Origin: Candidatus Saccharimonadota bacterium
GTDB lineage: Bacteria > Bacteroidota > Bacteroidia > Cytophagales > Amoebophilaceae
Reading direction: 5' to 3'
Assembly (NCBI RefSeq): GCF_965196625.1
Contig: NZ_OZ239769.1
Location: 60,001 to 92,000, forward strand
Length of the DNA: 32,000 nt
A model generated the notes under the pieces. That model was not told the origin of the DNA. It made no database searches and saw nothing but the letters and a program-made list of their open reading frames with translations. The stretch's first letter is position 1. Each line of letters opens with the position of its first letter. This document shows positions 6,604 to 31,514 of the stretch, one piece after another. The position numbers and the translations under genes are program-made.

Positions 6604-7407
6604 GTGCACATAAATCCATATTGCCATTTGTTAAAAAATGGCATAATCCACCAAATAAATAACCTAACGCTTACTAAATCAAAAAACCACATGTTAATGC
6701 ATGCAAAAGATGACCATGAGAATACTTTCCTGCATTGGGCAGCAGTCACTAATGATACAGATTACCTTAAAAAACTGCTTAAGATTGAAGGCATTAACGT
6801 AAATGCAAAAAATAAATATGGTGACACCTCACTGCATTTTGCAGCATGTGAAGGTAATGTAGAACATATTCAACTGTTATTGAAAATAAAAGAAATTAAT
6901 GTCAATATTAAAAATAAGGATGGTGATACTGGACTGCATTTGGCAGTATATGCAAATCATTTAAATATTGTTCAAGTATTATTGGACCAACCTTTTATTA
7001 ACGTAAATAGTAAAGGCAAAGATGGCTTGACGCCACTTCATTTAGCAACCAATGACGGTCATGTAGAGGCCGTTGAACTATTATTGAATACAATAGGCAT
7101 TGATATCAACGCCAGAGATAAAGATGATAATACGCCCTTACATTTAGCGGCATACGGTGGAAAAATAGAAGTAGTACAACTTCTACTGGAGCATAAATCT
7201 TTAAATATCAATGCAAAAAACAAATACAGCAGTACTGCGTTGCATTTGGCAACTTGTCAGGCGCACTTAGAAGTGTCTAAAATATTACTTAAAACAAAAG
7301 GTATTGATGTACGCATTAAAAATCAGTATGACCAAACGCCTGTTGATATAGCCAAATGGTCTTTTTACCATGAATATGTTGATCAATTACGTCAGTCATA
7401 TGCATAG
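6604..7407 (+). CDS. Ankyrin-repeat protein (about 6-7 ANK repeats)
   Basis: Repeated G-D/x-T-x-LH-x-A...G-H/N-x-x-x-V-x-LLL units, for example DGDTGLHLAVYANHLNIVQVLL, GLTPLHLATNDGHVEAVELLL, DNTPLHLAAYGGKIEVVQLLL. The listed start is GTG at 6604; ATG (MLMHAKDD...) at ~6691 is an alternative. Confidence 0.9.
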   Translation: MHINPYCHLLKNGIIHQINNLTLTKSKNHMLMHAKDDHENTFLHWAAVTNDTDYLKKLLKIEGINVNAKNKYGDTSLHFAACEGNVEHIQLLLKIKEINVNIKNKDGDTGLHLAVYANHLNIVQVLLDQPFINVNSKGKDGLTPLHLATNDGHVEAVELLLNTIGIDINARDKDDNTPLHLAAYGGKIEVVQLLLEHKSLNINAKNKYSSTALHLATCQAHLEVSKILLKTKGIDVRIKNQYDQTPVDIAKWSFYHEYVDQLRQSYA

Positions 7408-8576: not shown

Positions 8577-9950
8577 TTACGCAAGTCTCTCAGGATACTT
8601 GATCATGCCACTATCAATGTAAAACATGCCCATTGTGTAGAGTTTGCTATTGGGATATCTTTTCCACCCAAAACCTCGGCCTTTGCTTCTATGGGTCAAG
8701 TATCTGCGAAATCGGTTATTGATAAAGCTCTGCAATTTCCGAAAAGCTTCACTGGCATTCGTATGTTTAAAATAGTTTACCCATCCTAATACTACTGGTT
8801 TGATTTGCTCCGTGAATGCCACCGGTTTGATTGGTGCTCTCCTACAAGTCAAATATTTTAATCTGTTACGAATATTTTGCTGGGATCGTTTTGATGGAGA
8901 CACATAGATGGTATTTCTTCCACTTATTCGACTTTGTCTTTTTACAAAGTTAAAACCTATGAAGTTAAACCCTTCTGTTAGTTTCGTTATATGTGTCTTT
9001 TGGTGGTTAATAGTGAGCGATAATCTCTTGGCTAATTCTGTGAATCTTTCCAGCGCTAACTTGGCACTCTTGCGACATACTAGAATTACATCATCACAAT
9101 ATCTGTGTAAGGTTGCGTTTAGTTTTTCTGGATAGCTCCTTGAATGCCATACTTGGTCTATAACATTTAGGTATATATTACTATACAATGGTGAAACCGG
9201 AGAACCCTGAGGAACACCAACTTTCTTCTTGCTTATAGCTTTACCGTGTATAACCACTGAGGTCGTGAGAGTTTGCTTGATTATATGCAACATACTGCCA
9301 TCTGCTATTCTTTTACTAATCAGTTTTAATAACTTTTCGTGTGGAATACTTGTGAAGTATGATTGAAAATCTATCTCAACTACTCCCCATGCCTGCTGGT
9401 ATAGATCGTCATGGATGGCCATACTTGCTTGTTTGGCGCCTCGTTTCGGTCTATAGCCGTATGAACATTCATGAAAATCAGCTTCGAAGATCGGTTCAAT
9501 GACTATTTTAATGGCTGTCAGCACTATGCGGTCTTCTATGGTCGTTATCTCTAGGGGGCGTGTGCCGCCTTTGGGTTTAGGTATTTCTACCAACCTGCTT
9601 GAGCTAAACTTATATAGCTTGGCGCATAATTGCTTTTGCAATTTATTGATAATCAATTCTTCACCTGCTTCTATTATATCATTTATGCTTTTACCATCAA
9701 TCCCTGCTGAACCCTGGTTCGACTTGACTTGACGCCATGCCTCCCAAAGTACATCTGATCGATATATTTTATCGTATAGACTATAAAATCTGACTTCCTT
9801 ACTTTGCTTGGATTTAAGATATAGAGTTCTTTGGAGTTGCCGAACTTTTTGTGTTCCGTTCATAGCGTTTTTGCAATCAGACATTCTCAACTCTTTTAAA
9901 CTCGTTAACTGAAGTAGGGTCCCTTCCCTCTTGACTGGTTTCTCAATCAA
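8577..9950 (-). CDS. Group II intron reverse transcriptase/maturase (no HNH endonuclease domain)
   Basis: 457 aa. It has RT motifs SYGYRPKRGAKQA, VEIDFQSYFTSIPH, GVPQGSPVSPLYSNIYL and RYCDDVILVC (YxDD). The maturase X motif is LGWVNYFKH. The C-terminus ends without Cys/His HNH motifs. Confidence 0.93.
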   Translation of the reverse strand: MIEKPVKREGTLLQLTSLKELRMSDCKNAMNGTQKVRQLQRTLYLKSKQSKEVRFYSLYDKIYRSDVLWEAWRQVKSNQGSAGIDGKSINDIIEAGEELIINKLQKQLCAKLYKFSSSRLVEIPKPKGGTRPLEITTIEDRIVLTAIKIVIEPIFEADFHECSYGYRPKRGAKQASMAIHDDLYQQAWGVVEIDFQSYFTSIPHEKLLKLISKRIADGSMLHIIKQTLTTSVVIHGKAISKKKVGVPQGSPVSPLYSNIYLNVIDQVWHSRSYPEKLNATLHRYCDDVILVCRKSAKLALERFTELAKRLSLTINHQKTHITKLTEGFNFIGFNFVKRQSRISGRNTIYVSPSKRSQQNIRNRLKYLTCRRAPIKPVAFTEQIKPVVLGWVNYFKHTNASEAFRKLQSFINNRFRRYLTHRSKGRGFGWKRYPNSKLYTMGMFYIDSGMIKYPERLA

Positions 9951-10385
9951 TACTAACGGTACTATAAACCCCGCGGACTTCTGATATGACCCCTATTGAC
10001 TTCGCTTTACTTATACAATAAAGTTTCCAGTGGCCTACTGGATTCATATCAGATCTCCCGACCTACGATGTGATACATTCATAGCGTGCAACCCCTATCA
10101 CCCCGGCACTTGTAAGATGGATATGATCTATTTTTTTTTCCATCCTACTATCAGCCTTCCTGCTCTGACTAGGCAGTCGGCAAGTGCTCTTTAATTATTA
10201 ACGAGGCTAATTTGGGTTCACTTTTGTTGCAGCCCGCTATTTTGCAGATTATTAAAGGTAACTTAGGCCTGTAAGTCGCCTCACAAACCCAACCTCCTGC
10301 TAGACTCTCGAAATAGACAAATTAGAGTCTGGGGACTTTCACCCCATTTGTTTCACACCTGTACCGGCGTGCAATCAGATAAAAA

Positions 10386-11836: not shown

Positions 11837-12130
11837 GGATGAACGGCTACATTTAATTATTTTCTACTGATTTATAATGTTTTACAAAAATGATGATTTG
11901 TACAAAAAATGGTATATTTTCTTATTTTTAGTTATAGTGTAAAAATCTTTGCATTGAAAATCATTCATCTGAAAATTAATTATAAATTAAGCAATTTTCA
12001 TACTATACTCATAATCAACATTAAGTTTTGTACAGAATGTAGGTTAAAAACTTATTTTTCAATTCTAGGGCCATATATAAAAAAAGTGTCATGCAATGAT
12101 TAACACACTGCACGACACAAAAAAATAAAA

Positions 12131-12240
12131 GATGGCAACTACCTACTCTCCCGCGTTTTACCGAAGTACCATCGGCGCTGCTGGGCTTAACTGCTCTGTT
12201 CGGAATGGGAAGAGGTGCACACCAGCGCTTTCGTCACCTT
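12131..12240 (-). rRNA. rrf: 5S ribosomal RNA
   Basis: The reverse complement contains ...CCCAUUCCGAACAGAGCAGUUAAGCCCAGCAGCGCCGAUGGUACU...GGGAGAGUAGGUAGUUGCCAUC, the canonical 5S core. It is ~110 nt and lies ~100 nt downstream of the 23S 3-prime end. Confidence 0.9.
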
Positions 12241-12337
12241 TATTTTTAATCTTTTAATGGTCGGTTTTTACACCCACTATACAAACTACCTTAAGGTATT
12301 AATTGACTACTGTAAAAGCAAAATCAAGAAAAAAACA

Positions 12338-15230
<2,893 letters not shown>

Positions 15231-21566: not shown

Positions 21567-23027
21567 TTAGACTATAGGCACATTAATCCATTTATGATTT
21601 GCTTCATCCCAAGTAAACAATCTTGGTTGCGCAATATGGACCGCATACTCGACATAGGCCTTTGATGGCCTAGGGCCTAAGTGTAATGCAGTACCAAATG
21701 CATAAAAAGGAGATAAATCAGTATATTCTATAGTAAAGTATTTTTTAGCGATTAATGATGGAATCACTTCTACCAGTTCTTTCAGGTTAGACACTAATTT
21801 TGCATTAAAAGATAGCACTTTAAGCCTAAAATCATGCTTAGCCCTATCGGGGGAAACATGACTAAAAATATGGTTGGCATCTGCATAAAAAAAAGTCAAG
21901 CTTTTATCAGGTATACCACTTATTTGAGCAACATAATCATCCATTTCAAAAAAGATTGCCCCTCCAAAATGGACCATTTTAGTGATTTTATGGAGGTTAA
22001 GATCATAAAGGCCCACTTTGATATCATGCCACTGACCCATTCTAAAAATGGTTAATACCACCTCATCTTTAGTAGCCTTATTCATAGCCATATCAAAATC
22101 AACCAAATTAGGGCCTATTTGCTGGCCATTAATGGCCCAAACTACATCTCCAGGCAAGAGCAAACCAGCTGCAGGGCTACCCGCTAAGAGATGATCTACT
22201 GCAATAATAGAGGTGGCGCCACTGGGAAATCGCTTGATATATGCTTGTTGGACAGATGGCTCCAACCCATCATACCGAACTAAATCTTTAATAGGTATAG
22301 CTTTAGTAATAACGCCAACTTGTCTCCTAACAGGAGATTTACCTTTCCGAATAGCGGACAAAGCATACCGAATATATTCAGGATGGATCGCAAAGCCAAA
22401 TGTTTGATTAACAGCATAATTCAGCGCTATGGCCTGCCCCTGCCTATTAAAAATAGGCGAACCACTTGACCCACCTTTGGTATTTAAACTCAGCTTAATC
22501 GATTGCTGAGGCATAGCGCCTCCAATCTCATACAAATCTGCTACGACCCCTGTATGCAAAGAAAAGCTATACCCTTCATTATTCCCAACGATAAAAATAG
22601 GCTGATCCATAACGGGATTACAAGGACTAAAGATGGTTTCAGTCACCTCTTGTGGAATAGATGTAGGTGCAACTTGTAAAAATCCATAATCCAACCATGG
22701 ATCATAATAGACCAAATGGGCATCTTGTTGGATGCCATTAAAAAAGGTCACTTGGTAGCTACCCACTACCGCAGCGCCTATTACATGCTGGTTGGTTAAG
22801 ATATATCCATTTTTTTTATCTACCACACAACCCGTTCCATTCCACTTGCTGCCTTTACCATAAGCTGCAAAAGAAGCATTGACTGAAATGGTGACTACTG
22901 ATTTTTTAGCCTGCTCAATGCATTTTTCAGAAAACGCCTCCTTAGCGAAAAGCATAGGCGCATGGCATAAAAAGGCAAAAAGCATCACCCAACATTTAGG
23001 TTTTAAAAAATTCATTTTCATAAGCAT
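21567..23027 (-). CDS. Secreted trypsin-fold serine protease with two PDZ-like domains (HtrA/Nma111-like), catalytic triad intact
   Basis: A signal peptide MKMNFLKPKCWVMLFAFLCHAPMLFA is present. The triad is His in GYILTNQHVIG, Asp in LDYGFLQV, and Ser in TKGGSSGSPIFN. The first PDZ has LLAGSPAAGLLLPGDVVWAINGQQIG. A second PDZ-like region has FGGAIFFEMDD...LSFNAKLVSNLKELVEVI. Confidence 0.85.
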   Translation of the reverse strand: MLMKMNFLKPKCWVMLFAFLCHAPMLFAKEAFSEKCIEQAKKSVVTISVNASFAAYGKGSKWNGTGCVVDKKNGYILTNQHVIGAAVVGSYQVTFFNGIQQDAHLVYYDPWLDYGFLQVAPTSIPQEVTETIFSPCNPVMDQPIFIVGNNEGYSFSLHTGVVADLYEIGGAMPQQSIKLSLNTKGGSSGSPIFNRQGQAIALNYAVNQTFGFAIHPEYIRYALSAIRKGKSPVRRQVGVITKAIPIKDLVRYDGLEPSVQQAYIKRFPSGATSIIAVDHLLAGSPAAGLLLPGDVVWAINGQQIGPNLVDFDMAMNKATKDEVVLTIFRMGQWHDIKVGLYDLNLHKITKMVHFGGAIFFEMDDYVAQISGIPDKSLTFFYADANHIFSHVSPDRAKHDFRLKVLSFNAKLVSNLKELVEVIPSLIAKKYFTIEYTDLSPFYAFGTALHLGPRPSKAYVEYAVHIAQPRLFTWDEANHKWINVPIV

Positions 23028-23093: not shown

Positions 23094-24587
23094 CTAATGG
23101 CCATTTTTTGGTTGCAGCTGGTCTATGCCGGTTAAAACAATGTCTTGACCTTTCCATTCGAGATGGATGGGATCCCACGCCCAAACCTTGGGTGGTGCTA
23201 AGTTAGCGTCATATTCTACATCGACCTTATAACGATTGTAGGAAAATGAATAGAAAACCCCATGTTCCATTGGCAAGTGATTGATGTACGCAACTGTAAA
23301 GTATTTTTCATGCACCAATTGGGGAATCAGTGCAATCAATGCATCCAATGTTTGAACAGGCTTACCATTAATCGCCAAACATTCCATACCTAAAAGGCTA
23401 AAACGCTCCCGTGGCCAAGCAGGTACTTTGAAAATAGTATTCGATTCTGCAATACAGGCAACCAATGTTTTAGGTGCAAGACCGGTCAGTGTACTAAAGA
23501 AATCATCTGTTTCAAAAAAAGTAGCACCACCAAATTGAACCATTTTAGTTATGCGATGGCTGTTTAAGTCGTAAGGAGCTATCGCAACATCATGAAAAGC
23601 GCCTTGTCTAAAAATGGTTAAGCACAGTTGGTCCTTCGATTTATCAAGCGCTCTATCAAAATCTACTAGATTAGGGCCAACGAACTGACCATCAAGTGCC
23701 CAAATTAAATCCCCAGGTAAAAGCTTACCGGCTGCTGGTGTGCCTTTTAGTATACTATCTACTTGCAAAACTTTATTTTTTGCATCTTTAAATTTTGTGA
23801 TGTATGCTTTTTGCGAGACCGGGTCAAGGTGGTCGTAACGAACGGCATCATCTAGTGAATAGGTAGTTAGTAAAGCACCAATATGCTTTCTAACGGGGTG
23901 TTTTTTCTGCTTTAAGAAAGGCAACACATGCGCTATATAGCTTAGCGGTAAGCCGACATCCATGGTAGCTGACCCAGCACAATTTAAGGCAATACCTTCT
24001 CCAGCAGCATTGAAAATCAAAGAACCAGTTGCGCCACTTTTGCTAGGCATACCCACACGAATAAAGTGCTGCGGCATGGTCCATGGCATACTATAATTCA
24101 GATCATCTATGCTGCCCGTATAGAGTACAGCAGGCTTGTCTTTTGCTTTAGCAACCGTAAAAACAGACTGACCCAACAATGGGTTTTTACTACTGAACTT
24201 TACCGCCTGAATTTCTTTAGGAAGCAGGGATGGATCGACCTGTAGCAGGGCAAAATCTGCCCAAGTATCGTAATAGAGCAATTTGGCTGGAGCCTCTACC
24301 CCATTAAAAAAGCCAACGGTATAATCTGCAACCATACAAGGTCCAATATTCATACCAGAAGTTAAAATATAGCCTAGTTGCTTATCTATTACAACGCCAT
24401 TGCCATACCACTCTCCAGGCGGACTATAAGCAGAAACGGCTGCACGGCTCTCAATACAGACAACAGACTGCTTGGCATTTTTAATGACATTAGGTTTAAA
24501 TGCTGTAGCCTTACCATAAGAAGTGGAATAAGCGCACACGGCTAAAAAGCCCCCTAAAATAGCAGATAAAAGATTTTTATAACGCAT
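23094..24587 (-). CDS. Paralogue of the adjacent protease with catalytic His and Ser substituted (predicted pseudoprotease), signal peptide retained
   Basis: It is collinear with 21567..23027 over its full length. GYILTSGMNIG aligns to GYILTNQHVIG (His to Met). SKSGATGSLIFN aligns to TKGGSSGSPIFN (Ser to Thr, Pro to Leu). Asp is retained (ADFALLQV), and the PDZ blocks are conserved (LKGTPAAGKLLPGDLIWALDGQFVG). Confidence 0.8.
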   Translation of the reverse strand: MRYKNLLSAILGGFLAVCAYSTSYGKATAFKPNVIKNAKQSVVCIESRAAVSAYSPPGEWYGNGVVIDKQLGYILTSGMNIGPCMVADYTVGFFNGVEAPAKLLYYDTWADFALLQVDPSLLPKEIQAVKFSSKNPLLGQSVFTVAKAKDKPAVLYTGSIDDLNYSMPWTMPQHFIRVGMPSKSGATGSLIFNAAGEGIALNCAGSATMDVGLPLSYIAHVLPFLKQKKHPVRKHIGALLTTYSLDDAVRYDHLDPVSQKAYITKFKDAKNKVLQVDSILKGTPAAGKLLPGDLIWALDGQFVGPNLVDFDRALDKSKDQLCLTIFRQGAFHDVAIAPYDLNSHRITKMVQFGGATFFETDDFFSTLTGLAPKTLVACIAESNTIFKVPAWPRERFSLLGMECLAINGKPVQTLDALIALIPQLVHEKYFTVAYINHLPMEHGVFYSFSYNRYKVDVEYDANLAPPKVWAWDPIHLEWKGQDIVLTGIDQLQPKNGH

Positions 24588-24754: not shown

Positions 24755-26056
24755 CTAAATCTTTCTGCCTAATTCTTTTCCAGTTTCATATACCTTCTTG
24801 GGTAGTACCTTCTTAGCAAATTTTTGCATCCGCCTCCAAAAACTGGCTTTTTCCTTCATACCCTCTAATTTTGCTTTTAGATCCAACCCTTTACGCAAAC
24901 TATCCGCTCCACTTGCTGCGGCTGCCGCAGCTGCTGCACTACCCGCTACACCAGCAGCTGCAATATTGCCCGCTTTAAAACGACTACCTTGCTCTGCAGC
25001 GCTACCACCACCTGTTCCAGCACCAAGGGTTGCACTACTTTTTGCAGATTTAGCCGGACTACTGCCTGCTGAAGGGCTGCTACCAGCTGCGCCAGATTTA
25101 GTTGAACCGCTACCCTTTCCAGGAACAGCAGCCCCTCCAGATCCAGATATAGGTGCACCACTACCCGGTCCATGCCCTCCTCCACCAATGCCACCGCCAC
25201 TGCCACCAGGCCCATTACCAGCCACACCGCCTTTATTCGGACCGCTAGGAGCAAGAGCAGCACCAGGCCTAGAAGAATGAGCAGCGCCCACACCAGAATC
25301 ATAACCGCTAGAACCACTCGAGTCAACATTCGAAACAGAAGGATGAGAACGCGCACCACCACTAGATGAAGCATAAACCGGCCCACCAGCACCATTTGAT
25401 CCATGATAAACCTGATCAGGCCCTCCATCATAGGCACCAGGTGGCGCACCACTATAAGCGCCAATACCATTAGGGGTGGGTGCAAAAGACTCCTGACCAG
25501 GTGTATCTTGGCTAGAATGAGCTTTTCGATTTGAAGTGGCATTTGCACCAGATGGCTTGGCGTAATCGCTATCCACACCAGCGGCAGATTTGCCCGTTCC
25601 TACAGGAACCAGCTCTTCCAATACAACTATATGTGCCTCTGCTCGAACCAGTGTACCATCTACTTGGAACATAGAATAGACGATATTTAAATCTTGTAGC
25701 CTACCTTTAAAATCAATTTGCCCCCAGATGACACGGATGTAATTAGGCGCATTGTTTTTTTTATGGATGCTATAGGCAACATCTTGCAATTGCTTAACTT
25801 GTTCCATAACCGCAATGGCATTGCTGCCAGGTATAATACCGGTATTGTCAAACAAAAGGCTAAAAGAAAGCAACTTTGGAGAAGAGCCACGGTATTTAAG
25901 CGCATTATAATTCGCTATTCCATGAGGCACACCATAAGATACTGCACTTTTGATCGCTAAGTTCTCTGGATTAATAGATGTAATAAACTCTCCTGTAAAA
26001 GAGGAAAATTTATTATCACTACATCCTTTAATAACGAGTTTACTAACTTTGCTCAT
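24755..26056 (-). CDS. Contractile-injection-system tube-initiator-like protein (Afp7/Pvc7-type N-domain) fused to a long Gly/Ser/Ala/Pro-rich low-complexity region and a basic C-terminal helix; no LysM
   Basis: The N-terminal ~150 aa reads KLVIKGCSDNKFSSFTGEFITSINPENL...LLSFSLLFDNTGIIPGS...APNYIRVIWGQIDFKGRLQDLNIVYSMFQVDGTLVRAEAHIVV. This follows the Afp7-family pattern (K.tI.ay.d..f....f.v.iNPes, LsfeflfDgTGv, rPnyl.l.WG...fkc.l.sl.i.YtlF..dGtPlRAka). Residues ~155-385 are G/S/A/P-rich. The tail is KGLDLKAKLEGMKEKASFWRRMQKFAKKVLPKKVYETGKELGRKI. Confidence 0.75.
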   Translation of the reverse strand: MSKVSKLVIKGCSDNKFSSFTGEFITSINPENLAIKSAVSYGVPHGIANYNALKYRGSSPKLLSFSLLFDNTGIIPGSNAIAVMEQVKQLQDVAYSIHKKNNAPNYIRVIWGQIDFKGRLQDLNIVYSMFQVDGTLVRAEAHIVVLEELVPVGTGKSAAGVDSDYAKPSGANATSNRKAHSSQDTPGQESFAPTPNGIGAYSGAPPGAYDGGPDQVYHGSNGAGGPVYASSSGGARSHPSVSNVDSSGSSGYDSGVGAAHSSRPGAALAPSGPNKGGVAGNGPGGSGGGIGGGGHGPGSGAPISGSGGAAVPGKGSGSTKSGAAGSSPSAGSSPAKSAKSSATLGAGTGGGSAAEQGSRFKAGNIAAAGVAGSAAAAAAAASGADSLRKGLDLKAKLEGMKEKASFWRRMQKFAKKVLPKKVYETGKELGRKI

Positions 26057-26074
26057 AACTACAGATGAATAATT

Positions 26075-26248
26075 TTACCTTGCTTCCCGATCTTCTAGCA
26101 AGTGTAACAAGTCTCTGGCTAGTTCTATTCTTTGCTGCTCCGTAGTATTCGATCCAAGACCATCTAATGTAGTCTTATCATGCTCCCCTTGCACATTGCT
26201 TTCATAAACCTTAACCTGGATGACTAGTTCATTAATTTTAACAGGCAT
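26075..26248 (-). CDS. Small CIS protein, Afp6/Pvc6-like (DUF5908-type); start moved to the internal Met
   Basis: From the ATG at 26248 it reads MPVKINELVIQVKVYES.... The MPIxIxELxIxxxV opening and the ~57-aa size match the small conserved protein found between the tube and Afp7 genes in eCIS loci. The longer 75-aa ORF start (26302) is less likely. Confidence 0.6.
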   Translation of the reverse strand: MPVKINELVIQVKVYESNVQGEHDKTTLDGLGSNTTEQQRIELARDLLHLLEDREAR

Positions 26249-26339
26249 AATCCATAAAATTAGTTTTGCATCTCCCTTTTGAAACCGCTTTTTAAATAGC
26301 AACTTTTTTGCCGAAGCTGTGGCCTATACTCCATAGATA

Positions 26340-26798
26340 CTACTTGGTTCGTACAAGTCTAGAATAGCCAATCGTAATGGTTTCCCCTACGCCAAATTCT
26401 GTTGGACCACTTAGCTGAAAGGGAGTGATGGCTATACCCTTTGGATAAACATCCTCTATCTTCCACTGTGCCAGGATCTTACCCTCTTTATTAAGGACCA
26501 AAATATGGGCCTGGGTAAGTTTAAAAAGGCCTTTATCAATGGCTTCTTCGCACCAAAGGGTTATTTTGGTTTTACCTTCTACTAAGGGCCTGGTCAAGAT
26601 TAAATCAGTAGTATCACATGCATTGGATCTATAATAAGGCCTATTAGCCCCCCCGGGTAGATAGGCTTCCATACTCAAAGAATTATTTAACCCTTCTACC
26701 TTATAGAAATATTCTGGGGAACTACCATCTGTAATACCCAATACTTCTACTCGAAAAGAATGCGAATGCACTACATTAAAATCAGCCATACCTATCAA
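26340..26798 (-). CDS. Contractile tail/CIS inner tube protein (T4 gp19 / Afp1-Afp5 family)
   Basis: HSFRVEVLGITDG...YFYKVEGLNNSLSMEAYLPGGANRPYY......DLILTRPLVEGKTKITLWCEEAI follows the gp19-family pattern (F.v.i.g....f..vsGL..e.e..ey.eGG.n.......yp.L.L.RG......l..W). The start could be the Met at 26789 (MADFNVV). Confidence 0.85.
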   Translation of the reverse strand: MIGMADFNVVHSHSFRVEVLGITDGSSPEYFYKVEGLNNSLSMEAYLPGGANRPYYRSNACDTTDLILTRPLVEGKTKITLWCEEAIDKGLFKLTQAHILVLNKEGKILAQWKIEDVYPKGIAITPFQLSGPTEFGVGETITIGYSRLVRTK

Positions 26799-26970: not shown

Positions 26971-27426
26971 TTACTTTTTATCTGGATTCAAGCCTTCTAA
27001 AGTAAAGCGTATACGGATATAGCCCATTTCACCTGTAGCCTCGTTCTTTCTATTTAAAAACAACTCTGCTTTTTGTACGATAACATCATTTACAGTTGTT
27101 TTAGTATCTATTGAACCATCTTTTTTATGTACACAAAGGGTAAATGGTGCTGCCTCATACTTGTCCTCAAGCACTTCCTGTACCAAACTATATGCTTTTA
27201 CTAATAACTCTTTCCCAGTTATAAAGGGTAAAAACTCTACAGTAAAAGCTACCACTTCTTGTGCACTATGTTGATTCTGAAAAAGGGGTGCTTTGGTTGC
27301 TGTATCATATACAGCTGCTTTAGTAGATACTTTTTGATTGGGCATCCCAACAGCTGAAACACTACAGGTCTTGCTATCAAAGCCTGCTTTATTAAAGTGT
27401 TTATAGTCAATAGTTACTCTTTGCAT
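26971..27426 (-). CDS. CIS-operon protein of unknown family, 151 aa; possibly a divergent tube/Hcp(TssD)-fold paralogue
   Basis: It sits in the operon between the sheath and the gp19-type tube, and its size is tube-like. The C-terminal ...EMGYIRIRFTLEGL resembles the C-terminal strand of Bacteroidota TssD/Hcp-like proteins. The assignment is weak. Confidence 0.4.
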   Translation of the reverse strand: MQRVTIDYKHFNKAGFDSKTCSVSAVGMPNQKVSTKAAVYDTATKAPLFQNQHSAQEVVAFTVEFLPFITGKELLVKAYSLVQEVLEDKYEAAPFTLCVHKKDGSIDTKTTVNDVIVQKAELFLNRKNEATGEMGYIRIRFTLEGLNPDKK

Positions 27427-27487: not shown

Positions 27488-27952
27488 CTATTTTTTAATT
27501 ACAAAACTAACTGGATCATAAACAGCAAGATCGGCAGTCACTTCCTGAAGTCCCGTTTCATCATCTACCTCGCTGCTCATCTCACTAACATAACCCTGGA
27601 ATTGTATATGTGTAAATGGTTTATCATCATTGGTGGCAATGCTAAAAAGCATATTTTCCACATATTTTTTAGGATCATTCTCCTTCGTGGCATCTAGGTT
27701 TTTTTCTATTTTCTTAATATCATCATCAAATTTCTTATCTGGTGTTTTAAGTACAGAAACCTTAATATCAGTTGCTTGCCCAATCTCTCCTCCTTTTCGT
27801 ATCGCATAGACGGATTTACCTTGTGCATTAATTGATCTAACATATTGGGATCCATTCTCTAAAGAAATAGCTATGTGGTAATCCGTTATACTAACCTTCG
27901 AAGAGCCTAAATTAAAATGGACTATAGCAGGTATCAGCAAATTCTCAGCCAT
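27488..27952 (-). CDS. CIS-operon protein of unknown family, ~154 aa from the Met at 27952; possibly a divergent tube/Hcp-fold paralogue
   Basis: It lies immediately downstream of the sheath gene, where Afp-type loci place a tube gene. It begins MAENLLIPAIVHFNLGSSKVSITDYHIAISLENG... and is rich in beta-strand patterns. The ORF-track start (27991) adds 13 poorly plausible residues. Confidence 0.4.
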   Translation of the reverse strand: MAENLLIPAIVHFNLGSSKVSITDYHIAISLENGSQYVRSINAQGKSVYAIRKGGEIGQATDIKVSVLKTPDKKFDDDIKKIEKNLDATKENDPKKYVENMLFSIATNDDKPFTHIQFQGYVSEMSSEVDDETGLQEVTADLAVYDPVSFVIKK

Positions 27953-28035
27953 GGTTGTTTTAGTTTTAAATGTTTTTAAAGTTATAAACAAAATATAGGG
28001 GGTAATATACCCCCTATAGACGCATACCTAAATGG

Positions 28036-29523
28036 CTAACCGTCTGCACCCATTTTTTGTTCAAAAGTGATCACAATAAACTCAGCTGGTCTAGGCGCTG
28101 CTACTTTTACGGAAATACGCATGATGCCCTCATTTACGTCATCTTGCGACATAGTCTCACCCAATCCGCAGAGGACCGTAAATGCCTCTGCAGGGCTTGC
28201 ACCGACTAAGGCACCTTGTCGCCAAAGATTGGTTAAGAAGTTGGAAATCATGCCCTGTACAACGGCCCAGGTAACGGGAACGTTTGGCCTAAAGACAACG
28301 GAGAAGGCCGCATTTTTAATCGATTGCTCAATAAGAATAAACAACCTTCTGACGTTAATATACCTCCATTCTGGACTATTGCCCGCTAGGGTTCTAGCGC
28401 CCCAAACGACTGCTGCACCGGCCCCTTTAAAGGTACGGATGGCATTGATGGATTTACCGCTAATGCCATCTACGTTGAGTGCTTCTTGCTCTTCATGGGT
28501 AATCTTAACCATTGGCTCCACAACAGAGTTTAGATTTTGATTGGCCGGCGCAATCCATACCCCTCTTGCTTTATCGGTTCTGGTGTAGAGCCCTGCCATC
28601 GCAGGAGCGGCTGGAAGAATATTCAACCGATCTGCAATGGTTTTGCGCAATAGCTTGTACTCCTTACTGGTATTTTTTAGCCCAGCATCCCAATAAACTT
28701 TCTCTTTCTCTGTAGTCGCACTAATTAAGTTAGAGAGCATGGTTTTATGCTCCTCTTGCAATACACACTTGAGCGACTCTAGATCAAAGTTTCTATAATC
28801 AATGCTATTCAATGGGATAATGTTTGTTTTAACCCATGGATAATAGGCAGCACCATAACTCAAATTATCTAATCCAATATATTCACGAAACCTGTTTACA
28901 TATTTGTTTTTATCTTCAATAGATAATTCATTGTTGCCACCCCATATATCAAATAAGGCAACTTTATTCAGATATTTACCGCAATGCGCAAGCCCGTAGG
29001 TCTGTACAGCATAGTAAGAGGCATCTTCTTCATCTAATAAGAGGGAGTCTGGCATTAACAACATGGTGGGCACCTCTTCTCCAGCTAGGGTATCGATGCC
29101 TTGCTTGAATACATCTGGTGTAATCTCTAACTGTGCATTTGGATCACCATACTGACCGACAGAAACAATAAAGCAGTCTGCACCACCATTATCAAAGAAT
29201 AGCTTTAAACTATTATATAGGTAAAATGTAGAGTTTGCACTCTGTTCCATCACATAAGATTTGCCATTCATAACCAAATCTTTATCTCCACTGGTTACCT
29301 CTTTAATGGTATAGACAGGCACTGCTGGCCCTCCAAAAAATAACTCATATTCAGAAAGCGAAGAGATCTGAACGGGTTTCATATGAAAAGACTTTCCATT
29401 AATTTCAGCTCTTTCAGTGAAACCTATAAAAGCAGGAACTGCAGTTGATACTTGAACCACGGCGTTGGCACCCGTATCCTTCTCGACGATGTACACGCCG
29501 GGAGTTTTTAAATTTTCAGCCAT
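28036..29523 (-). CDS. Contractile sheath protein (phage tail sheath / Afp2-4 / TssC-like family)
   Basis: 495 aa. The N-terminus MAENLKTPGVYIVEKD....VSTAVPAFIGFTE is the classic sheath opening (PGVY.eE....i..v.TsvaaFvG). The C-terminal block is ISGKSINAIRTFKGAGAAVVWGARTL...WRYINVRRL. Confidence 0.93.
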   Translation of the reverse strand: MAENLKTPGVYIVEKDTGANAVVQVSTAVPAFIGFTERAEINGKSFHMKPVQISSLSEYELFFGGPAVPVYTIKEVTSGDKDLVMNGKSYVMEQSANSTFYLYNSLKLFFDNGGADCFIVSVGQYGDPNAQLEITPDVFKQGIDTLAGEEVPTMLLMPDSLLLDEEDASYYAVQTYGLAHCGKYLNKVALFDIWGGNNELSIEDKNKYVNRFREYIGLDNLSYGAAYYPWVKTNIIPLNSIDYRNFDLESLKCVLQEEHKTMLSNLISATTEKEKVYWDAGLKNTSKEYKLLRKTIADRLNILPAAPAMAGLYTRTDKARGVWIAPANQNLNSVVEPMVKITHEEQEALNVDGISGKSINAIRTFKGAGAAVVWGARTLAGNSPEWRYINVRRLFILIEQSIKNAAFSVVFRPNVPVTWAVVQGMISNFLTNLWRQGALVGASPAEAFTVLCGLGETMSQDDVNEGIMRISVKVAAPRPAEFIVITFEQKMGADG

Positions 29524-29568: not shown

Positions 29569-30429
29569 TTAAACATATACAACTATATCGCTATAGCGTT
29601 TCTTTGTATTGCTTTTATCCTTTTTGAGCGAATCATAGGTAGGATAAGGCAATTTTTCTATTAATATGGTTTCTCCTTTTGTGCCACCAAGTTTACAAAG
29701 CGAAAAAGAACGATCGTATCGATCGCAAAGTTCCATAGGCTTGGTAGACTCTGCACAATAGGTATTCGGCAACTCAGAAGAAGCCTTTACAACACTAAAG
29801 TAAGAAGGATCCCCTTCAGATAAAATACCCAATGGTCCATTAAGCTGATTTTTGGTATCTACTACATAATACCGCCAAAAGGTAGAACGATTTTTAACTT
29901 TAATGGCATAGGTAACAGGCGCAGGACAACGGCTATCTTTTTGCTTGGATAGGGCATGCGCCCAATGGGCCAGATCTATATCAATCATTGCAAAAACATT
30001 CCAACCTGGCTCAGTAGGGTAATGCACCACCTCCTGAATCTTAACCAGATCAGCACTGCTCATAAAAGTTTTACGGTGCAACGAATGGTTATTATGGGTA
30101 TGCCCATTGTGTAAATAATAGACGGCTCCCGTTGGGTAGCCAGCCTCTAACTCAGAAAGATTTAATGCTTGGCTATTTTTTAATGTCATGACAAAAGAGA
30201 GGGTAATGCCCTCTGCTTTTTGCTGAAACAACGTCAGTGGATCATCATAGTGCTGTGAAAGCCATATCAATTCTATGCCATCTGGATGGTCCAAGAGGCG
30301 CACCCTACGTGCTGTCAGCCAGGCAGCAGTAGACTGAGTAGGCTGAATGGCAAAATCATTCTGGACATTACCGGATTTATAATAATCATTCGAAATAGCG
30401 ATCCGAAATAATTTGGTTGTAAATGCCAT
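29569..30429 (-). CDS. Hypothetical protein, 286 aa, encoded between the cap-like and sheath genes of the CIS operon
   Basis: It is a clean ORF, 5 nt from the upstream gene and 45 nt from the sheath gene, on the same strand. I recognise no domain. Confidence 0.6.
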   Translation of the reverse strand: MAFTTKLFRIAISNDYYKSGNVQNDFAIQPTQSTAAWLTARRVRLLDHPDGIELIWLSQHYDDPLTLFQQKAEGITLSFVMTLKNSQALNLSELEAGYPTGAVYYLHNGHTHNNHSLHRKTFMSSADLVKIQEVVHYPTEPGWNVFAMIDIDLAHWAHALSKQKDSRCPAPVTYAIKVKNRSTFWRYYVVDTKNQLNGPLGILSEGDPSYFSVVKASSELPNTYCAESTKPMELCDRYDRSFSLCKLGGTKGETILIEKLPYPTYDSLKKDKSNTKKRYSDIVVYV

Positions 30430-30434
30430 AGCGA

Positions 30435-30995
30435 TTACCTTTCACGTGATGAAAATGCAGATACTACCTTTAAACCCATTGTAGCATCTCCTATAAATAT
30501 AAGCCCTACCTTATACAACAAAGAAGGACTATAAGGCGTATGTAACGTTTTCCAAAGGATAGACTTTTCTGATGGCGTCATTTTAACGAGCTCAACCGAA
30601 AAACTTTCAATCCCGAGTTCTTGTAAAACAGGGGTATTGGAAGTATCAAAGTGTGACTTACTTTGAAAAAATGCTGCAACATAAGCCAGTAATTCTAAAT
30701 TTTTTAATAGGTCAGATAGTTTATAATCAGTAGAAAATAAAAAATAAAGATTAAATGCTTCTGGCCTTTTGCGTAAGATAAAACCATCTGCCTGTGGCAC
30801 ATATTGCGTAGGATTGCTGCACAACTCTACTGAAGTAATATCTACCAATCTCATAATAATTCCCTTTGAAGACTTACTTTCTACCTGAGAATTTCCTAAG
30901 ATTGACAAAGATATAGCTGGCTCCTTTACATTCGATTTAGACTGAATGTATTGATTTACCTCAGACAATATAGTGTGCGTGCAATGATGTAGCAT
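30435..30995 (-). CDS. DUF4255 / Pvc16_N-type protein (Afp16-like tube-sheath terminator cap)
   Basis: 186 aa. ...IIMRLVDITSVE...RKRPEAFNLYFLFSTDY...LELLAYVAAFFQSKSHF....ILWKTLHTPYSPSLLYKVGLIFI fits the DUF4255 layout (Lvni.ee, p..lnLyyLi.a, l.ll..v...f, lW..l....rPS..Y.v). It is the first gene of the operon, as in many Bacteroidota CIS loci. Confidence 0.78.
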   Translation of the reverse strand: MLHHCTHTILSEVNQYIQSKSNVKEPAISLSILGNSQVESKSSKGIIMRLVDITSVELCSNPTQYVPQADGFILRKRPEAFNLYFLFSTDYKLSDLLKNLELLAYVAAFFQSKSHFDTSNTPVLQELGIESFSVELVKMTPSEKSILWKTLHTPYSPSLLYKVGLIFIGDATMGLKVVSAFSSRER

Positions 30996-31259: not shown

Positions 31260-31514
31260 TTAATGGCCTTGTTCGATAGGGTCACAAACTACTATAAGCT
31301 GGTTGTCGGCTATTGAGGTAAAACCACCCTTTACTGCAACGGAGGATGACACTGCTCCAACGCTATAGGTGATCTGCCCAGCTACCAAACTGCTTAGCGT
31401 AGGTGCATGATGGGAAAGTACCTGAAATGGACCAAGCGCACCTGGCAACATTACATGATCCACCACTCCATTAAAAATGCTACCATTAGGCGCTATGATA
31501 GATAGATGCATCAT
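31260..31514 (-). CDS. atpC: F-type ATP synthase epsilon subunit (short, beta-sandwich-only form)
   Basis: MMHLSIIAPNGSIFNGVVDHVMLPGALGPFQVLSHHAPTLSSLVAGQITY....VAVKGGFTSIADNQLIVVCD follows the AtpC pattern (l.i.tP....f.g.v..v.lPg..G.fgvL..HaP.it.L..G.i......aV.gGf.ev..n.v.vl). Confidence 0.85.
   Translation of the reverse strand: MMHLSIIAPNGSIFNGVVDHVMLPGALGPFQVLSHHAPTLSSLVAGQITYSVGAVSSSVAVKGGFTSIADNQLIVVCDPIEQGH

What the first reader, a model, noticed from the sequence alone, without database searches (positions are those of the whole stretch)
24900..25600. Afp7-like tube initiator carries a ~230-aa Gly/Ser/Ala/Pro-rich, GC-rich extension and a basic amphipathic tail in place of LysM
Seen in sequence: the first ~150 residues match the Afp7/Pvc7 N-domain pattern. 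The protein then continues with ~230 residues of low-complexity sequence (runs such as GGSGGGIGGGGHGPGSGAPISGSGGAAVPGKGSGS and GSAAAAAAAASG). It ends in a Lys/Arg-rich helix (KAKLEGMKEKASFWRRMQKFAKKVLPKKVYETGKELGRKI). The encoding DNA is visibly far more GC-rich than the surrounding AT-rich genome, which is why three spurious overlapping ORFs appear there.

Established knowledge: canonical Afp7/Pvc7-type proteins are ~200-250 aa with a C-terminal LysM domain.

Inference: the disordered extension could occupy the tube lumen, acting as a tape-measure-like or cargo-tethering element. Alternatively it could link the tube base to a membrane or other partner through the basic helix. No tape-measure gene is present in this module, which makes a length-determination role worth testing.
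Basis: partly seen in the sequence, partly recalled or inferred. Interest (0 to 1): 0.7.

Follow-up and report, generated by a model that had tools for sequence, protein, structure and literature searches.

The report
Cardinium tube initiator with disordered tether
This gene makes the first ring of the inner tube of the phage-tail-like injection machine of the insect symbiont Cardinium; its usual small docking domain has decayed and been replaced by a long floppy linker ending in a positively charged helix, a remodelling shared by a whole lineage that most likely serves attachment, probably to the cell membrane, rather than length measurement.

Summary
A 433-aa ORF (24755-26056, minus strand) has a CIS_tube domain at residues 3-147. 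About 235 Gly/Ser/Ala/Pro-rich residues predicted to be disordered follow, then a Lys/Arg-rich C-terminal helix. The window comes from Cardinium (symbiont of Nabis limbatus). The gene is the Afp7/Cis7 orthologue (CAHE_0463/Aasi_1079) of the T6SSiv-type injection system.

It is not an artefact. Seven other Cardinium genomes keep the frame, and the GC excess sits only at codon positions 1 and 2.

The architecture defines one clade of about 40 sequence clusters, whereas 94 canonical relatives are about 225 aa with a LysM domain.

New finding: in the sister subclade the LysM domain is still present. It is displaced by a 60-155-aa disordered insertion and followed by a hydrophobic helix and a poly-lysine tail. 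In Cardinium only a 'DSLRK' vestige of LysM remains.

The tape-measure idea is not supported. Two relatives with the long form carry a dedicated CIS_TMP gene, the extension varies in length, and solved structures show this C-terminus leaving the ring outwards.

Best reading, at moderate confidence: a flexible tether carrying a membrane- or baseplate-binding tail.

Verdict: a new variant of a known kind, of moderate interest.

The parts
24755..26056 (-). Complete CDS of the long-form tube initiator (433 aa plus stop). It is the orthologue of CAHE_0463 / Aasi_1079 / Afp7.
   Evidence: ORF. It is 100% identical to a protein of Cardinium endosymbiont of Nabis limbatus. Orthology with Afp7 is given in PMC3486910, Table S5. 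The ORF is intact in 7 other Cardinium loci.
25607..26056 (-). Residues 1-150: the tube (beta-barrel) domain that would form the hexameric tube-initiator ring.
   Evidence: PF19266 matches residues 3-147 with E=1.6e-31. phmmer against PDB hits Alg7 (7aeb_M) with E=2.4e-19 over residues 3-143. The top Foldseek hits are Alg7, Cis7, Pvc7 and Afp7. AF2 pLDDT is about 70-78. dN/dS is 0.04-0.13.
24980..25606 (-). Residues 151-359: Gly/Ser/Ala/Pro-rich tether predicted to be disordered. This is the GC-rich stretch.
   Evidence: AF2 pLDDT is below 50. No Pfam family matches. The wider region 151-393 has GC1 0.66, GC2 0.73 and GC3 0.24. dN/dS, computed over residues 151-385, is 0.36-0.72, and the frame is always kept. 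There are no tandem repeats.
25400..25486 (-). Residues 191-219: conserved motif FAPTPNGxGAYSGAPxGAYDGGPDxxYHG embedded in the tether.
   Evidence: The columns are nearly invariant in alignment A1. An HMM of the motif hits every member of the Cardinium/Amoebophilaceae subclade at the same position and no other homologue. dN/dS is 0.08-0.42. pLDDT rises locally to 54-58.
25163..25234 (-). Residues 275-298: KGGVAGNGPGGSGGGIGGGGHGPG, a glycine run conserved among Cardinium strains.
   Evidence: Alignment A1, columns about 335-360: conserved in the Cardinium rows, absent or divergent in more distant members.
24890..24979 (-). Residues 360-389: Ala/Gly-rich stretch ending in DSLRK. It is interpreted as the decayed remnant of the LysM-like domain.
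   Evidence: [quoted passage not shown] Against canonical LysM the probability is 0.2%. The homology is therefore weak and this assignment is an inference.
24764..24883 (-). Residues 392-431: basic helix-hinge-helix tail (KASFWRRMQKFAKKVLP-KKVYETGKELGRKI). The last 50 residues carry a net charge of +10.
   Evidence: AF2 predicts helices 392-417 and 420-431 with pLDDT 50-60. Net charge. The W..K and KAY(D/N)AGKK elements are shared with distant clade members. dN/dS is 0.21-0.45. The hydrophobic moment is 0.54, with p about 0.07 against shuffles.
26075..26302 (-). Context: the upstream plug gene (DUF5908, Afp6/Alg6/Aasi_1078 type), the conserved left neighbour of the tube initiator.
   Evidence: PF19265 E=8.9e-6. 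The same neighbour occurs in L001-L007, L012, L014, L016 and L017. The plug role is described in PMC8894135.
26340..30995 (-). Context: the rest of the module. Gene order is Pvc16_N cap (30435-30995), 286-aa unknown, sheath (28036-29523), 167-aa and 151-aa unknowns, and gp19-type tube (26340-26798).
   Evidence: Pfam results. Synteny holds in 7 Cardinium loci and in L012/L016.

Best explanation
SHOWN. The gene is the Cardinium orthologue of the tube initiator (Afp7/Pvc7/Alg7/Cis7) of the T6SSiv-type contractile injection system. Residues 1-150 are the beta-barrel that would form the first hexameric ring of the inner tube on top of the spike.

The rest is a lineage-specific remodelling. The short linker that normally joins the barrel to a LysM-like docking domain has been expanded into a disordered tether of about 210-235 residues. 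The LysM domain itself has decayed to an Ala/Gly-rich stretch ending in DSLRK. A basic, Trp-containing helix-hinge-helix has been added at the C-terminus.

The GC-richness is a by-product of the Gly/Ala/Pro/Ser codons, not foreign DNA.

INFERRED. The tether and tail form an attachment device. The chain leaves the ring on its outer side, as LysM does. It uses the long flexible linker to reach a distant, negatively charged surface and holds on with the hydrophobic/basic tail.

The most likely target is the cytoplasmic membrane on which these systems are mounted without a TssJLM complex. Six tails per baseplate would then tie the assembly nucleus (spike, plug, initiator) to the membrane.

The protein is not a tape measure.
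For: Identity and architecture (shown):
- PF19266 match.
- PDB sequence and fold matches to Alg7, Cis7, Pvc7 and Afp7.
- Position directly after the plug gene in a module syntenic across Cardinium and relatives.
- Orthology table in PMC3486910.

Real and translated:
- Intact ORFs of 408-443 aa in 7 Cardinium genomes at dS about 0.8-1, with dN/dS below 1 in every segment.
- GC3 of 0.24 inside the GC-rich part.
- Alternative frames not conserved.

Clade-wide:
- In an exhaustive search, the roughly 40 closest 50%-identity clusters are mostly 290-616 aa. More distant ones are 212-262 aa with a LysM end.
- The long forms form one clade in a neighbour-joining tree.

Tether and tail arose together:
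- Among LysM-bearing homologues, 94 have neither a long linker nor a tail, 15 have both and 1 has only the linker.
- Linker composition is not conserved (acidic in subclade B, Gly/Ser/Ala/Pro-rich in Cardinium), but its disorder and length are.

Membrane-like character of the tail in the sister subclade:
- Directly after LysM comes P[FL]SLxALLAALLxK. This reaches 22 consecutive hydrophobic residues in P0049 (Kyte-Doolittle 19-residue mean 2.81) and exceeds 2.0 in P0040, P0041, P0050, P0052 and P0033.
- Tails of +6 to +29 net charge follow.

Geometry:
- The C-terminal domain of solved initiators extends outwards to the wedges (PMC8894135, PMC12546770, PMC8894136).
- About 235 disordered residues have a contour length of roughly 80 nm (0.36 nm per residue, established value). 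That is ample to reach a membrane below the baseplate.

Biology:
- T6SSiv is attached to the inner membrane and lacks a trans-envelope complex (10.1101/2024.01.29.577165).
- Cardinium's filament arrays are attached to the inner membrane (PMC12342168).
- The plug, spike and initiator contact each other extensively, and the authors propose the plug as the nucleus of particle assembly (PMC8894135).
Against: - There is no experimental localisation.
- In Cardinium itself the strongly hydrophobic helix of the sister subclade has been lost. What remains is an Ala-rich stretch (19-residue hydropathy 1.45) and a basic helix whose amphipathicity is not significantly above shuffles.
- Exact sequence elements such as KAY(D/N)AGKK are conserved over large distances. 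That is more typical of a protein-protein contact than of generic lipid binding.
- In the sister subclade the hydrophobic helix follows LysM with no spacer. If LysM sits at its canonical site high in the baseplate, the helix could not reach the membrane.
- A Lys-rich segment after a hydrophobic helix conflicts with a simple transmembrane topology under the positive-inside rule (established knowledge). Insertion would have to be monotopic or in-plane.
- The co-occurrence of linker and tail reflects a single evolutionary origin, so it is one event, not 15.
Confidence: 0.4

Rival explanations
1. Baseplate-internal glue or array linker. The basic tail replaces the decayed LysM domain by binding the same acidic surfaces of the wedge and sheath-initiator proteins, or those of a neighbouring baseplate in the ordered arrays. 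The disordered segment is a tolerated or spacing element, and its Tyr/Gly/Pro motif is a second docking peptide.
For: - The LysM-like domain of Pvc7 binds Pvc12 and Pvc4 through a mainly negatively charged interface (PMC12546770). The tail carries +10.
- Conserved short motifs (residues 191-219; W..K; KAYDAGKK) suggest specific partners.
- In the sister subclade the helix follows LysM with no linker.
- T6SSiv baseplates make lateral contacts in arrays of up to 34 units (PMC8894135).
Against: - It gives no reason for a 60-235-residue flexible linker to appear together with the tail.
- Segments such as IALALLLGLLLL (P0049) or LVAGLALGALGLAIPALLAGLLAWLL (P0050) look like membrane segments rather than soluble interfaces.
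Confidence: 0.28
2. Projectile-borne membrane-active module. The initiator ring is the first tube layer behind the spike and leaves the cell with the tube. Its six tethered cationic or hydrophobic helices would be carried to the target (host or phagosome) membrane and help disrupt it, making this an 'evolved tube initiator' comparable to evolved VgrG, PAAR or Hcp proteins.
For: - The tube initiator sits between the spike and the tube (PMC12546770, PMC8894135).
- The tail is cationic, contains Trp, and forms a helix-hinge-helix.
- The T6SSiv of Amoebophilus is thought to help escape from the phagosome (PMC8894135).
- No effectors are known for Cardinium (PMC12342168).
- The resemblance to cationic lytic peptides is recalled from memory and was not tested.
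Against: - A hydrophobic or polybasic tail made in the cytoplasm would bind the producer's own anionic membrane first.
- No similarity to any toxin or effector family was found.
- The tail would have to be dragged through the baseplate channel on a long leash.
- Amphipathicity is not significant in most homologues.
Confidence: 0.1
3. Non-functional decay. In a reduced symbiont genome the LysM domain and linker have drifted into low-complexity sequence, which is tolerated but does nothing. Only the barrel matters.
For: - dN/dS of the disordered part is relaxed (0.36-0.72), indels are frequent and composition differs between lineages.
- The host is a reduced, AT-rich symbiont genome (PMC3486910).
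Against: - About 280 codons stay open in every lineage examined, in an AT-rich genome where stop codons arise easily.
- The motif at 191-219 and the tail are under purifying selection.
- The same layout is kept in about 40 diverged clusters.
- The only split copy differs by one base in a G8 run, and its downstream frame is intact.
Confidence: 0.1
4. One reading: the disordered extension lies in the tube lumen and acts as a tape measure or cargo tether.
For: - The tube lumen of CIS is negatively charged (PMC8894135, PMC12546770) and the tail is basic.
- No tape-measure gene lies in this window.
Against: - Relatives with the long form encode a dedicated PF19268 CIS_TMP in the same cluster.
- Cardinium has an Afp14-like gene elsewhere (PMC3486910, Table S5).
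- In the T6SSiv of Aureispira the Cis14 tape measure is required for assembly, and sheath length is uniform (10.1101/2024.01.29.577165).
- The extension has no match to CIS_TMP, is predicted disordered rather than helical, and varies in length among close relatives.
- The chain exits the barrel on the outside (PMC8894135).
Confidence: 0.04

Closest known systems
Alg7, tube initiator of AlgoCIS (Algoriphagus machipongonensis; PDB 7aeb chain M, 228 aa)
   Same: It is the best sequence and fold match of the N-domain: phmmer E=2.4e-19 over residues 3-143, Foldseek E=2.9e-10, 30% identity. It belongs to the same clade Ib of CIS as T6SSiv (PMC8894135). Its gene sits in the same position, after the plug gene.
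   Different: Alg7 ends in a LysM domain joined by a short linker, which was reported to be cleaved. It belongs to a free extracellular CIS. The Cardinium protein has about 235 disordered residues, no detectable LysM and a basic tail.
Afp7 / Pvc7 / Cis7 (AFP 6rao_G, PVC 6j0n_b and 9qgl_7A, Anabaena tCIS 7b5h_AK, Streptomyces 9gtp_M)
   Same: They share the same tube-fold N-domain and the same presumed place as the first hexameric tube layer on the spike (PMC12546770, PMC8894136).
   Different: All are 223-232 aa with a LysM-like C-terminus that glues the tube to the wedge and sheath initiator. None has a disordered insertion or a post-LysM tail.
Sister subclade of long-form initiators from uncultured relatives (e.g. 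P0040 in L012, P0177 in L016, P0041, P0049)
   Same: They share the N-domain (46-52% identity), a long disordered insertion after the barrel, the DSLR motif, W..K and KAYDAGKK-type elements, and a basic C-terminus. Cluster order is the same, and the L012 sheath is 78% identical to the window's.
   Different: They retain a LysM-like beta-alpha-alpha-beta domain: hhalign probability 98%, AF2 pLDDT about 85, and Foldseek hits to true LysM domains. They also have a strongly hydrophobic helix that Cardinium lacks. They lack the Cardinium motif at residues 191-219.
CIS tape measure proteins (Afp14/Cis14, Pfam PF19268)
   Different: There is no sequence match, and the extension is disordered rather than helical. 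Tape measures are 914 to more than 1500 aa in the relatives and are encoded alongside the long-form initiator.
Membrane anchoring by re-engineered CIS components (tCIS Cis11 and fibre extensions; haloarchaeal Hbor_38620; Streptomyces CisA)
   Same: The theme is the same: an eCIS-like machine is converted to a membrane-attached one by adding extensions or accessory membrane proteins (PMC8894136; 10.1101/2024.04.11.588991; 10.1101/2024.06.25.600559).
   Different: Those anchors are baseplate, fibre or separate membrane proteins. An anchor carried by the tube initiator has not been described in the papers I could search.
C-terminal amphipathic membrane-targeting helices of MinD and FtsA (recalled from memory, not tested)
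   Same: They are short, C-terminal, Lys/Arg-rich helices with Trp/Phe/Leu on one face, attached through a flexible linker.
   Different: There is no homology. The amphipathic moment here is only moderate, and lipid binding is untested.

Membership tests
CIS tube initiator (Afp7/Pvc7/Alg7/Cis7) | N-terminal tube-fold domain matching Pfam PF19266 (CIS_tube) | tested here: met
   E=1.6e-31, 109.6 bits against a cut-off of 27, residues 3-147.
CIS tube initiator (Afp7/Pvc7/Alg7/Cis7) | Closest solved structures are tube initiators rather than ordinary tube proteins | tested here: met
   Foldseek ranks 1-7 are Alg7, Cis7, Pvc7 (two entries), Afp7 (two entries) and the Streptomyces homologue. phmmer against PDB gives the same set.
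CIS tube initiator (Afp7/Pvc7/Alg7/Cis7) | Gene lies directly after the plug gene (DUF5908/Afp6) and before the spike gene (VgrG/Afp8) | tested here: met
   The plug gene is at 26075-26302. VgrG follows directly in the unsplit clusters L012 and L016. In Cardinium the cluster is broken at this point (PMC3486910).
CIS tube initiator (Afp7/Pvc7/Alg7/Cis7) | C-terminal LysM-like domain that docks on the wedge and sheath initiator | tested here: not met
   No Pfam hit at E<=10. hhalign against canonical LysM regions gives probability 0.2%. AF2 shows no beta-alpha-alpha-beta unit. Only a DSLRK vestige remains. The domain is present in the sister subclade.
CIS tube initiator (Afp7/Pvc7/Alg7/Cis7) | Forms a hexameric ring between the spike and the Afp5-type ring | not testable with these tools
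   This needs a particle structure or a multimer prediction.
T6SSiv (Amoebophilus-type membrane-attached CIS) | Gene set orthologous to the A. asiaticus Aasi_1072-1083 cluster | tested here: met
   The window's module order is Pvc16_N, unknown, sheath, two unknowns, gp19 tube, plug, initiator. The orthology table is in PMC3486910. All Cardinium genomes encode T6SSiv homologues (PMC12342168).
T6SSiv (Amoebophilus-type membrane-attached CIS) | [quoted passage not shown] | not testable with these tools
   Literature only: Cardinium filament arrays are attached to the inner membrane (PMC12342168), and A. asiaticus lacks a trans-envelope complex (10.1101/2024.01.29.577165).
CIS tape measure protein (Afp14/Cis14, PF19268) | Sequence match to PF19268 | tested here: not met
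   No hit for the whole protein or for the C-terminal 283 aa.
CIS tape measure protein (Afp14/Cis14, PF19268) | It is the only candidate length determinant of the system | tested here: not met
   Dedicated CIS_TMP genes lie next to long-form initiators in L012 and L016. An Afp14-like CAHE_0118 is reported in Cardinium (PMC3486910, Table S5).
CIS tape measure protein (Afp14/Cis14, PF19268) | Extended helical polypeptide of conserved length | tested here: not met
   Residues 151-388 have pLDDT below 50 and no secondary structure. Orthologue lengths range from 336 to 491 aa.
Amphipathic membrane-targeting helix | C-terminal helix that is cationic, with a hydrophobic face | tested here: inconclusive
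   Helices 392-417 and 420-431 are predicted and the net charge is +10. The hydrophobic moment is 0.54, but 6.5% of shuffles reach it, and most homologues are not significant.
Amphipathic membrane-targeting helix | Binds membranes | not testable with these tools
   This needs fractionation, liposome binding or a GFP-tail fusion.

The most novel reading that the evidence does not exclude
The tethered C-terminal module is a membrane-inserting element carried on the first ring of the projectile. It would be an 'evolved tube initiator'. It first holds the machine on the bacterial membrane. On firing it is dragged with the spike into the host or phagosome membrane, where six cationic or hydrophobic helices help to breach it. 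Cardinium and Amoebophilus would then carry part of their 'effector' on the tube itself.
Probability: 0.1. Interest if true: 0.8.

Novelty: new variant of a known kind. Interest (0 to 1): 0.5.

Why it matters
How the phage-tail-like T6SSiv machines of Amoebophilus, Cardinium and their relatives are fixed to the inner membrane without the TssJLM complex is unresolved. Published proposals point to baseplate 'feet', the Cis11 cage and a fibre-like protein.

This analysis shows that a core component of these systems, the tube initiator, has been rebuilt in exactly this lineage. It carries a long disordered insertion plus a hydrophobic/basic tail, with stepwise decay of the LysM docking domain.

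That gives a concrete, testable candidate for membrane tethering or for nucleating assembly at the membrane. It also gives a sequence signature (long linker plus post-LysM tail) that could help predict a membrane-attached mode of action for uncharacterised CIS clusters.

For annotation, it shows that the GC-rich 'odd' segment and its overlapping ORFs are a compositional by-product. It also shows that a gene split seen in one Cardinium assembly is a one-base change in a G8 run.

Tried and rejected
- Artefact or frameshift fusion: rejected. Seven Cardinium loci keep the ORF. The GC excess is at codon positions 1-2 only. Alternative frames are not conserved.
- Horizontal acquisition of the GC-rich segment: rejected. 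GC3 is 0.24, as AT-rich as the host genome.
- Repeat expansion: rejected. No tandem repeats were found beyond a 22-bp micro-array.
- Hidden LysM in Cardinium: searched with Pfam at E<=10, a custom HMM and hhalign. It was not detected. Only a weak tail homology to the sister subclade appeared (E=8e-4).
- My earlier reading that 'NGLDSLR...GLSLAxP' begins a hydrophobic anchor was corrected. That stretch is the end of the LysM domain, and the helix starts after the Pro.
- Amphipathic helix as a strong signal: downgraded after shuffle controls.
- Direct search for the Cardinium tape measure, using a profile of the L012 and L016 TMPs: found only 3 metagenomic proteins. I therefore rely on PMC3486910, Table S5.
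- A profile of distant long-form N-domains in the word-indexed database returned only 10 proteins. It did reveal the closest canonical LysM forms (P0183, P0184).
- The primary T6SSiv paper (PMC6485382) is not held in the library, so its anchor description is cited second-hand.
- The neighbouring HtrA-like proteases as processing enzymes for the linker: not pursued. They carry signal-like N-termini and are absent next to the gene in four strains.
- Promoter and terminator scan around the gene: nothing above the shuffle expectation.
Full report
**What is there**

The finding's coordinates (24900-25600) fall inside a 433-aa ORF on the minus strand, 24755-26056.
- Pfam places a CIS_tube domain (PF19266) at residues 3-147 with E=1.6e-31, and finds nothing else.
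- The C-terminal 283 residues scanned alone give no family even at E<=10. NCBIfam gives nothing either.
- Residues 151-393 are 68% Gly/Ser/Ala/Pro. The last 40 residues contain 14 Lys/Arg.
- GC is 0.54-0.57 across 24901-25500 against 0.377 for the window.

**Where the window comes from and what the gene is**

The protein is 100% identical to a hypothetical protein of Cardinium endosymbiont of Nabis limbatus.

On the minus strand the gene closes a module with this order:
- Pvc16_N cap protein
- a 286-aa unknown
- sheath
- 167-aa and 151-aa unknowns
- gp19-type tube
- DUF5908 plug
- this gene

This matches the Cardinium cEper1 genes CAHE_0458-0463 and the Amoebophilus genes Aasi_1074-1079. Penz et al. 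list CAHE_0463 = Aasi_1079 = Afp7 homologue. [quoted passage not shown]

The system is the T6SSiv type. It is thought to form the membrane-attached filament arrays for which Cardinium is named (PMC12342168), and it is highly transcribed (PMC5698495).

The N-domain is most similar, in sequence and in predicted fold, to the solved tube initiators: Alg7 (7aeb_M), Cis7 (7b5h_AK), Pvc7 (6j0n_b, 9qgl_7A) and Afp7 (6rao_G). All of these are 223-232 aa. Assignment to the tube-initiator family is therefore solid for the N-domain.

**Not an artefact, not foreign DNA**
- Within the GC-rich part, GC is 0.66 at codon position 1, 0.73 at position 2 and only 0.24 at position 3. The GC excess is what Gly, Ala, Pro and Ser codons impose. 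The silent positions keep the AT bias of the genome.
- Seven other Cardinium genomes (L001-L007) carry an intact ORF of 408-443 aa ending in the same tail, although synonymous divergence is about 0.8-1.
- dN/dS is 0.04-0.13 for the barrel, 0.36-0.72 for the disordered part, 0.08-0.42 for an embedded motif and 0.21-0.45 for the tail. dS is near saturation, so these values are rough.
- Open stretches in the other five frames differ widely between strains, so the overlapping ORFs are by-products.
- There are no DNA tandem repeats.
- The single exception is the Cardinium of Dermatophagoides farinae, where the gene is annotated as two genes (209 and 216 aa). The break is a one-base frame change at a G8 run, and the downstream frame is open and conserved to the same tail. 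This is a sequencing error or a very recent change.

**How unusual the architecture is**

An exhaustive search of 1.84 billion representative proteins with the N-domain found 650 homologues.
- The roughly 40 closest clusters (39-88% identity) are mostly 290-616 aa.
- Below about 38% identity nearly all are 212-262 aa and end in the LysM-like ...FPP motif.
- In a neighbour-joining tree of the N-domains the long forms make one clade. This is a crude tree with no support values.
- In a syntenic Ferruginibacter cluster the homologue is 225 aa and canonical.
- The structural literature agrees: Alg7, Pvc7, Afp7 and Cis7 have a C-terminal LysM-like domain that extends out and binds wedge and sheath-initiator proteins (PMC8894135, PMC12546770, PMC8894136).

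**The extension is more than low complexity**

The alignment of 19 orthologues (A1) shows three conserved elements:
- A nearly invariant motif, F-x-x-T-P-x-G-x-x-G-A-Y-S-G-A-P-x-G-A-Y-D-G-G-P-D-x-x-Y-x-G (residues 191-219). An HMM of it finds it in every Cardinium/Amoebophilaceae member at the same distance from the barrel, and in no other homologue.
- A Cardinium-specific glycine run, KGGVAGNGPGGSGGGxGGGGH.
- A C-terminal block, DSLRK...SFWRRLKxFAKKVxPKAYxAGKK.

AlphaFold2 on this alignment gives a barrel with pLDDT of about 70-78. Residues 151-388 are below 50, with a small rise at the motif. Two helices, 392-417 and 420-431, have pLDDT 50-60.

**The key new result: LysM is displaced, then lost**

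The more distant long forms (subclade B: P0033, P0036-38, P0040, P0041, P0044, P0049, P0052, P0055, P0058, P0062, P0065 and others) still contain a LysM-like domain. It lies far downstream.
- A profile of the canonical LysM region hits them at positions about 220-380 with E of 1e-11 to 1e-5.
- Profile-profile comparison gives 98% probability.
- AlphaFold2 of P0041 predicts a beta-alpha-alpha-beta unit at 258-305 with pLDDT of about 85, after a disordered stretch at 168-255.
- Foldseek aligns that model to Alg7 over 310 columns, and its LysM unit to genuine LysM crystal structures.
- The closest canonical relatives (P0183, P0184; Cytophagales MAG; 220 aa; PF19266 plus PF01476) align end to end with subclade B, except for a 60-155-residue insertion between barrel and LysM and an added C-terminal extension.

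That extension begins directly after the last LysM strand with a hydrophobic helix, P-[FL]-S-L-x-A-L-L-A-A-L-L-x-K. It reaches 22 consecutive hydrophobic residues in P0049. It continues with KKG, W-[LV]-K-K-K / KAYDAGKK-type elements, and 15-130 Lys-rich residues with net charge of +6 to +29.

In Cardinium the 'DSLRK' block corresponds to the conserved end of LysM (NGLDSLR). The sequence before it is an Ala/Gly-rich stretch with no detectable LysM similarity (probability 0.2%). The tail aligns only weakly with the subclade B tail (E=8e-4) but shares W..K and KAY(D/N)AGKK.

The likely history is therefore:
1. The canonical form.
2. Insertion of a disordered linker, together with a hydrophobic/basic tail.
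3. In the Cardinium/Amoebophilaceae branch: decay of LysM, loss of the strongly hydrophobic helix, and gain of the Tyr/Gly/Pro motif.

The order of these steps is an inference from the alignment and a crude tree.

**Why it is not a tape measure**
- Two relatives with unsplit clusters have this gene order: cap, sheath, tubes, plug, long-form initiator, VgrG, PAAR, gp25, a protein of about 825 aa, and then a PF19268 CIS_TMP protein (E=1.4e-35). They are L012, whose sheath is 78% identical to the window's, and L016.
- Cardinium has an Afp14-like gene elsewhere (CAHE_0118; PMC3486910, Table S5). My own attempt to retrieve it failed for technical reasons.
- No CIS_TMP lies in the window, as expected for a split system.
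- In the T6SSiv of Aureispira, insertion into the Cis14 tape-measure gene abolishes assembly, and sheath length is uniform (10.1101/2024.01.29.577165).
- The extension is disordered, variable in length, and leaves the barrel on the outside.

**What it most likely does**

The linker and the tail appear together. Among LysM-bearing homologues, 94 have neither, 15 have both and 1 has only the linker. This reflects one evolutionary origin, so it counts as a single event.

The linker's composition is free: acidic in subclade B, Gly/Ser/Ala/Pro-rich in Cardinium. Its disorder and length are what is kept. That is what one expects of a tether that must span a distance.

The tail's common denominator is hydrophobic and aromatic residues next to many Lys/Arg. 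In several subclade B members it is as hydrophobic as a membrane segment.

These machines are mounted on the inner membrane without a TssJLM complex. The plug, spike and initiator contact each other extensively, and the authors propose the plug as the nucleus of particle assembly (PMC8894135).

I therefore favour a membrane tether or membrane-localised nucleator, at a confidence of about 0.4.

The counter-arguments are real:
- The Cardinium tail is only moderately amphipathic.
- Conserved short motifs suggest protein partners.
- The Pvc7 LysM interface is acidic (PMC12546770).
- In subclade B the helix abuts LysM.

A baseplate-internal or inter-baseplate glue role is thus the main rival (0.28). 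A projectile-borne membrane-active role (0.1) and functionless decay (0.1) remain possible. The tape-measure or lumen role is unlikely (0.04).

**Novelty**

I found no paper in the searchable library that mentions Aasi_1079 or CAHE_0463 in its main text, or that describes a tube initiator with such an insertion and tail. The primary T6SSiv paper could not be read.

The protein belongs to a known family by its N-domain, but it fails the family's C-terminal LysM criterion. I file it as a new variant of a known kind. Interest is moderate: it offers a specific, testable candidate for an open question, how T6SSiv is fixed to the membrane, but the mechanism is inferred from sequence alone.

Noticed in passing
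L017:3001-4277 (Cardinium of Dermatophagoides farinae, GCA_007559345.1): The orthologous gene is annotated as two genes (209 and 216 aa). The frame changes at a G8 run. The downstream frame is fully open and conserved to the same basic tail, so this is a sequencing error or a very recent, possibly phase-variable, frameshift.
   Followed up: partly
window 21567-23027 and 23094-24587 (-): Two tandem HtrA-like genes (Trypsin_2 plus PDZ, with signal-like N-termini) lie directly downstream of the tube-initiator gene. The same neighbourhood occurs in L003, L004, L007 and L017 but not in L001, L002, L005 or L006. AlgoCIS Alg7 has a cleaved barrel-LysM linker, but any connection is untested.
   Followed up: partly
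window 8577-10339 (-): A group II intron lies just downstream of the 5S rRNA gene. Its reverse-transcriptase/maturase ORF is at 8577-9950, and Rfam RF02005 domains D1-D4 are at 10091-10339.
   Followed up: no
window 12130-15227 (-): The 23S and 5S rRNA genes have no 16S gene beside them. Upstream there are about 600 bp with no ORF of 100 aa or more, then thyA and other housekeeping genes. The rRNA genes appear to be unlinked.
   Followed up: no
window 1052-2902 (+), 3374-4159 (+), 6604-7407 (+): Three genes of note: a TraG/TrwB-type type IV secretion coupling protein (616 aa), an IS110-family transposase, and a 267-aa ankyrin-repeat protein. This looks like mobile-element and host-interaction cargo near the CIS module.
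   Followed up: no
window 29569-30429, 27488-27991, 26971-27426 (-): Three conserved module proteins (286, 167 and 151 aa; counterparts of Aasi_1073, Aasi_1075 and Aasi_1076) match no Pfam family, and NCBIfam gives only chance-level hits far below its cut-offs. They are 63-93% identical across Cardinium strains.
   Followed up: partly
L014:7490-9691: In one relative, two lipase-like genes (DUF676; PGAP1/Lipase_3) sit directly upstream of the plug and long-form initiator pair, away from sheath and tube genes. They are possible effectors.
   Followed up: no
L012:866-1969: A eukaryote-type ubiquitin C-terminal hydrolase (UCH) gene lies near the unsplit CIS cluster of a Cardinium/Amoebophilus relative. 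This recalls the Aasi_1805 protease next to the Afp14-like Aasi_1806.
   Followed up: no
window 31260-31514 (-) and L016:5482-5733: An ATP synthase epsilon N-domain gene lies immediately upstream of the Pvc16_N cap gene, both in Cardinium and in the distant relative L016. The flank is conserved despite cluster fragmentation.
   Followed up: no
proteins P0053 (616 aa) and P0021 (491 aa): Some long-form initiators carry additional C-terminal material. P0053 has about 230 further residues after the basic tail. P0021 has tandem KVATEASKK(V/A)HDVATEASKK repeats.
   Followed up: no
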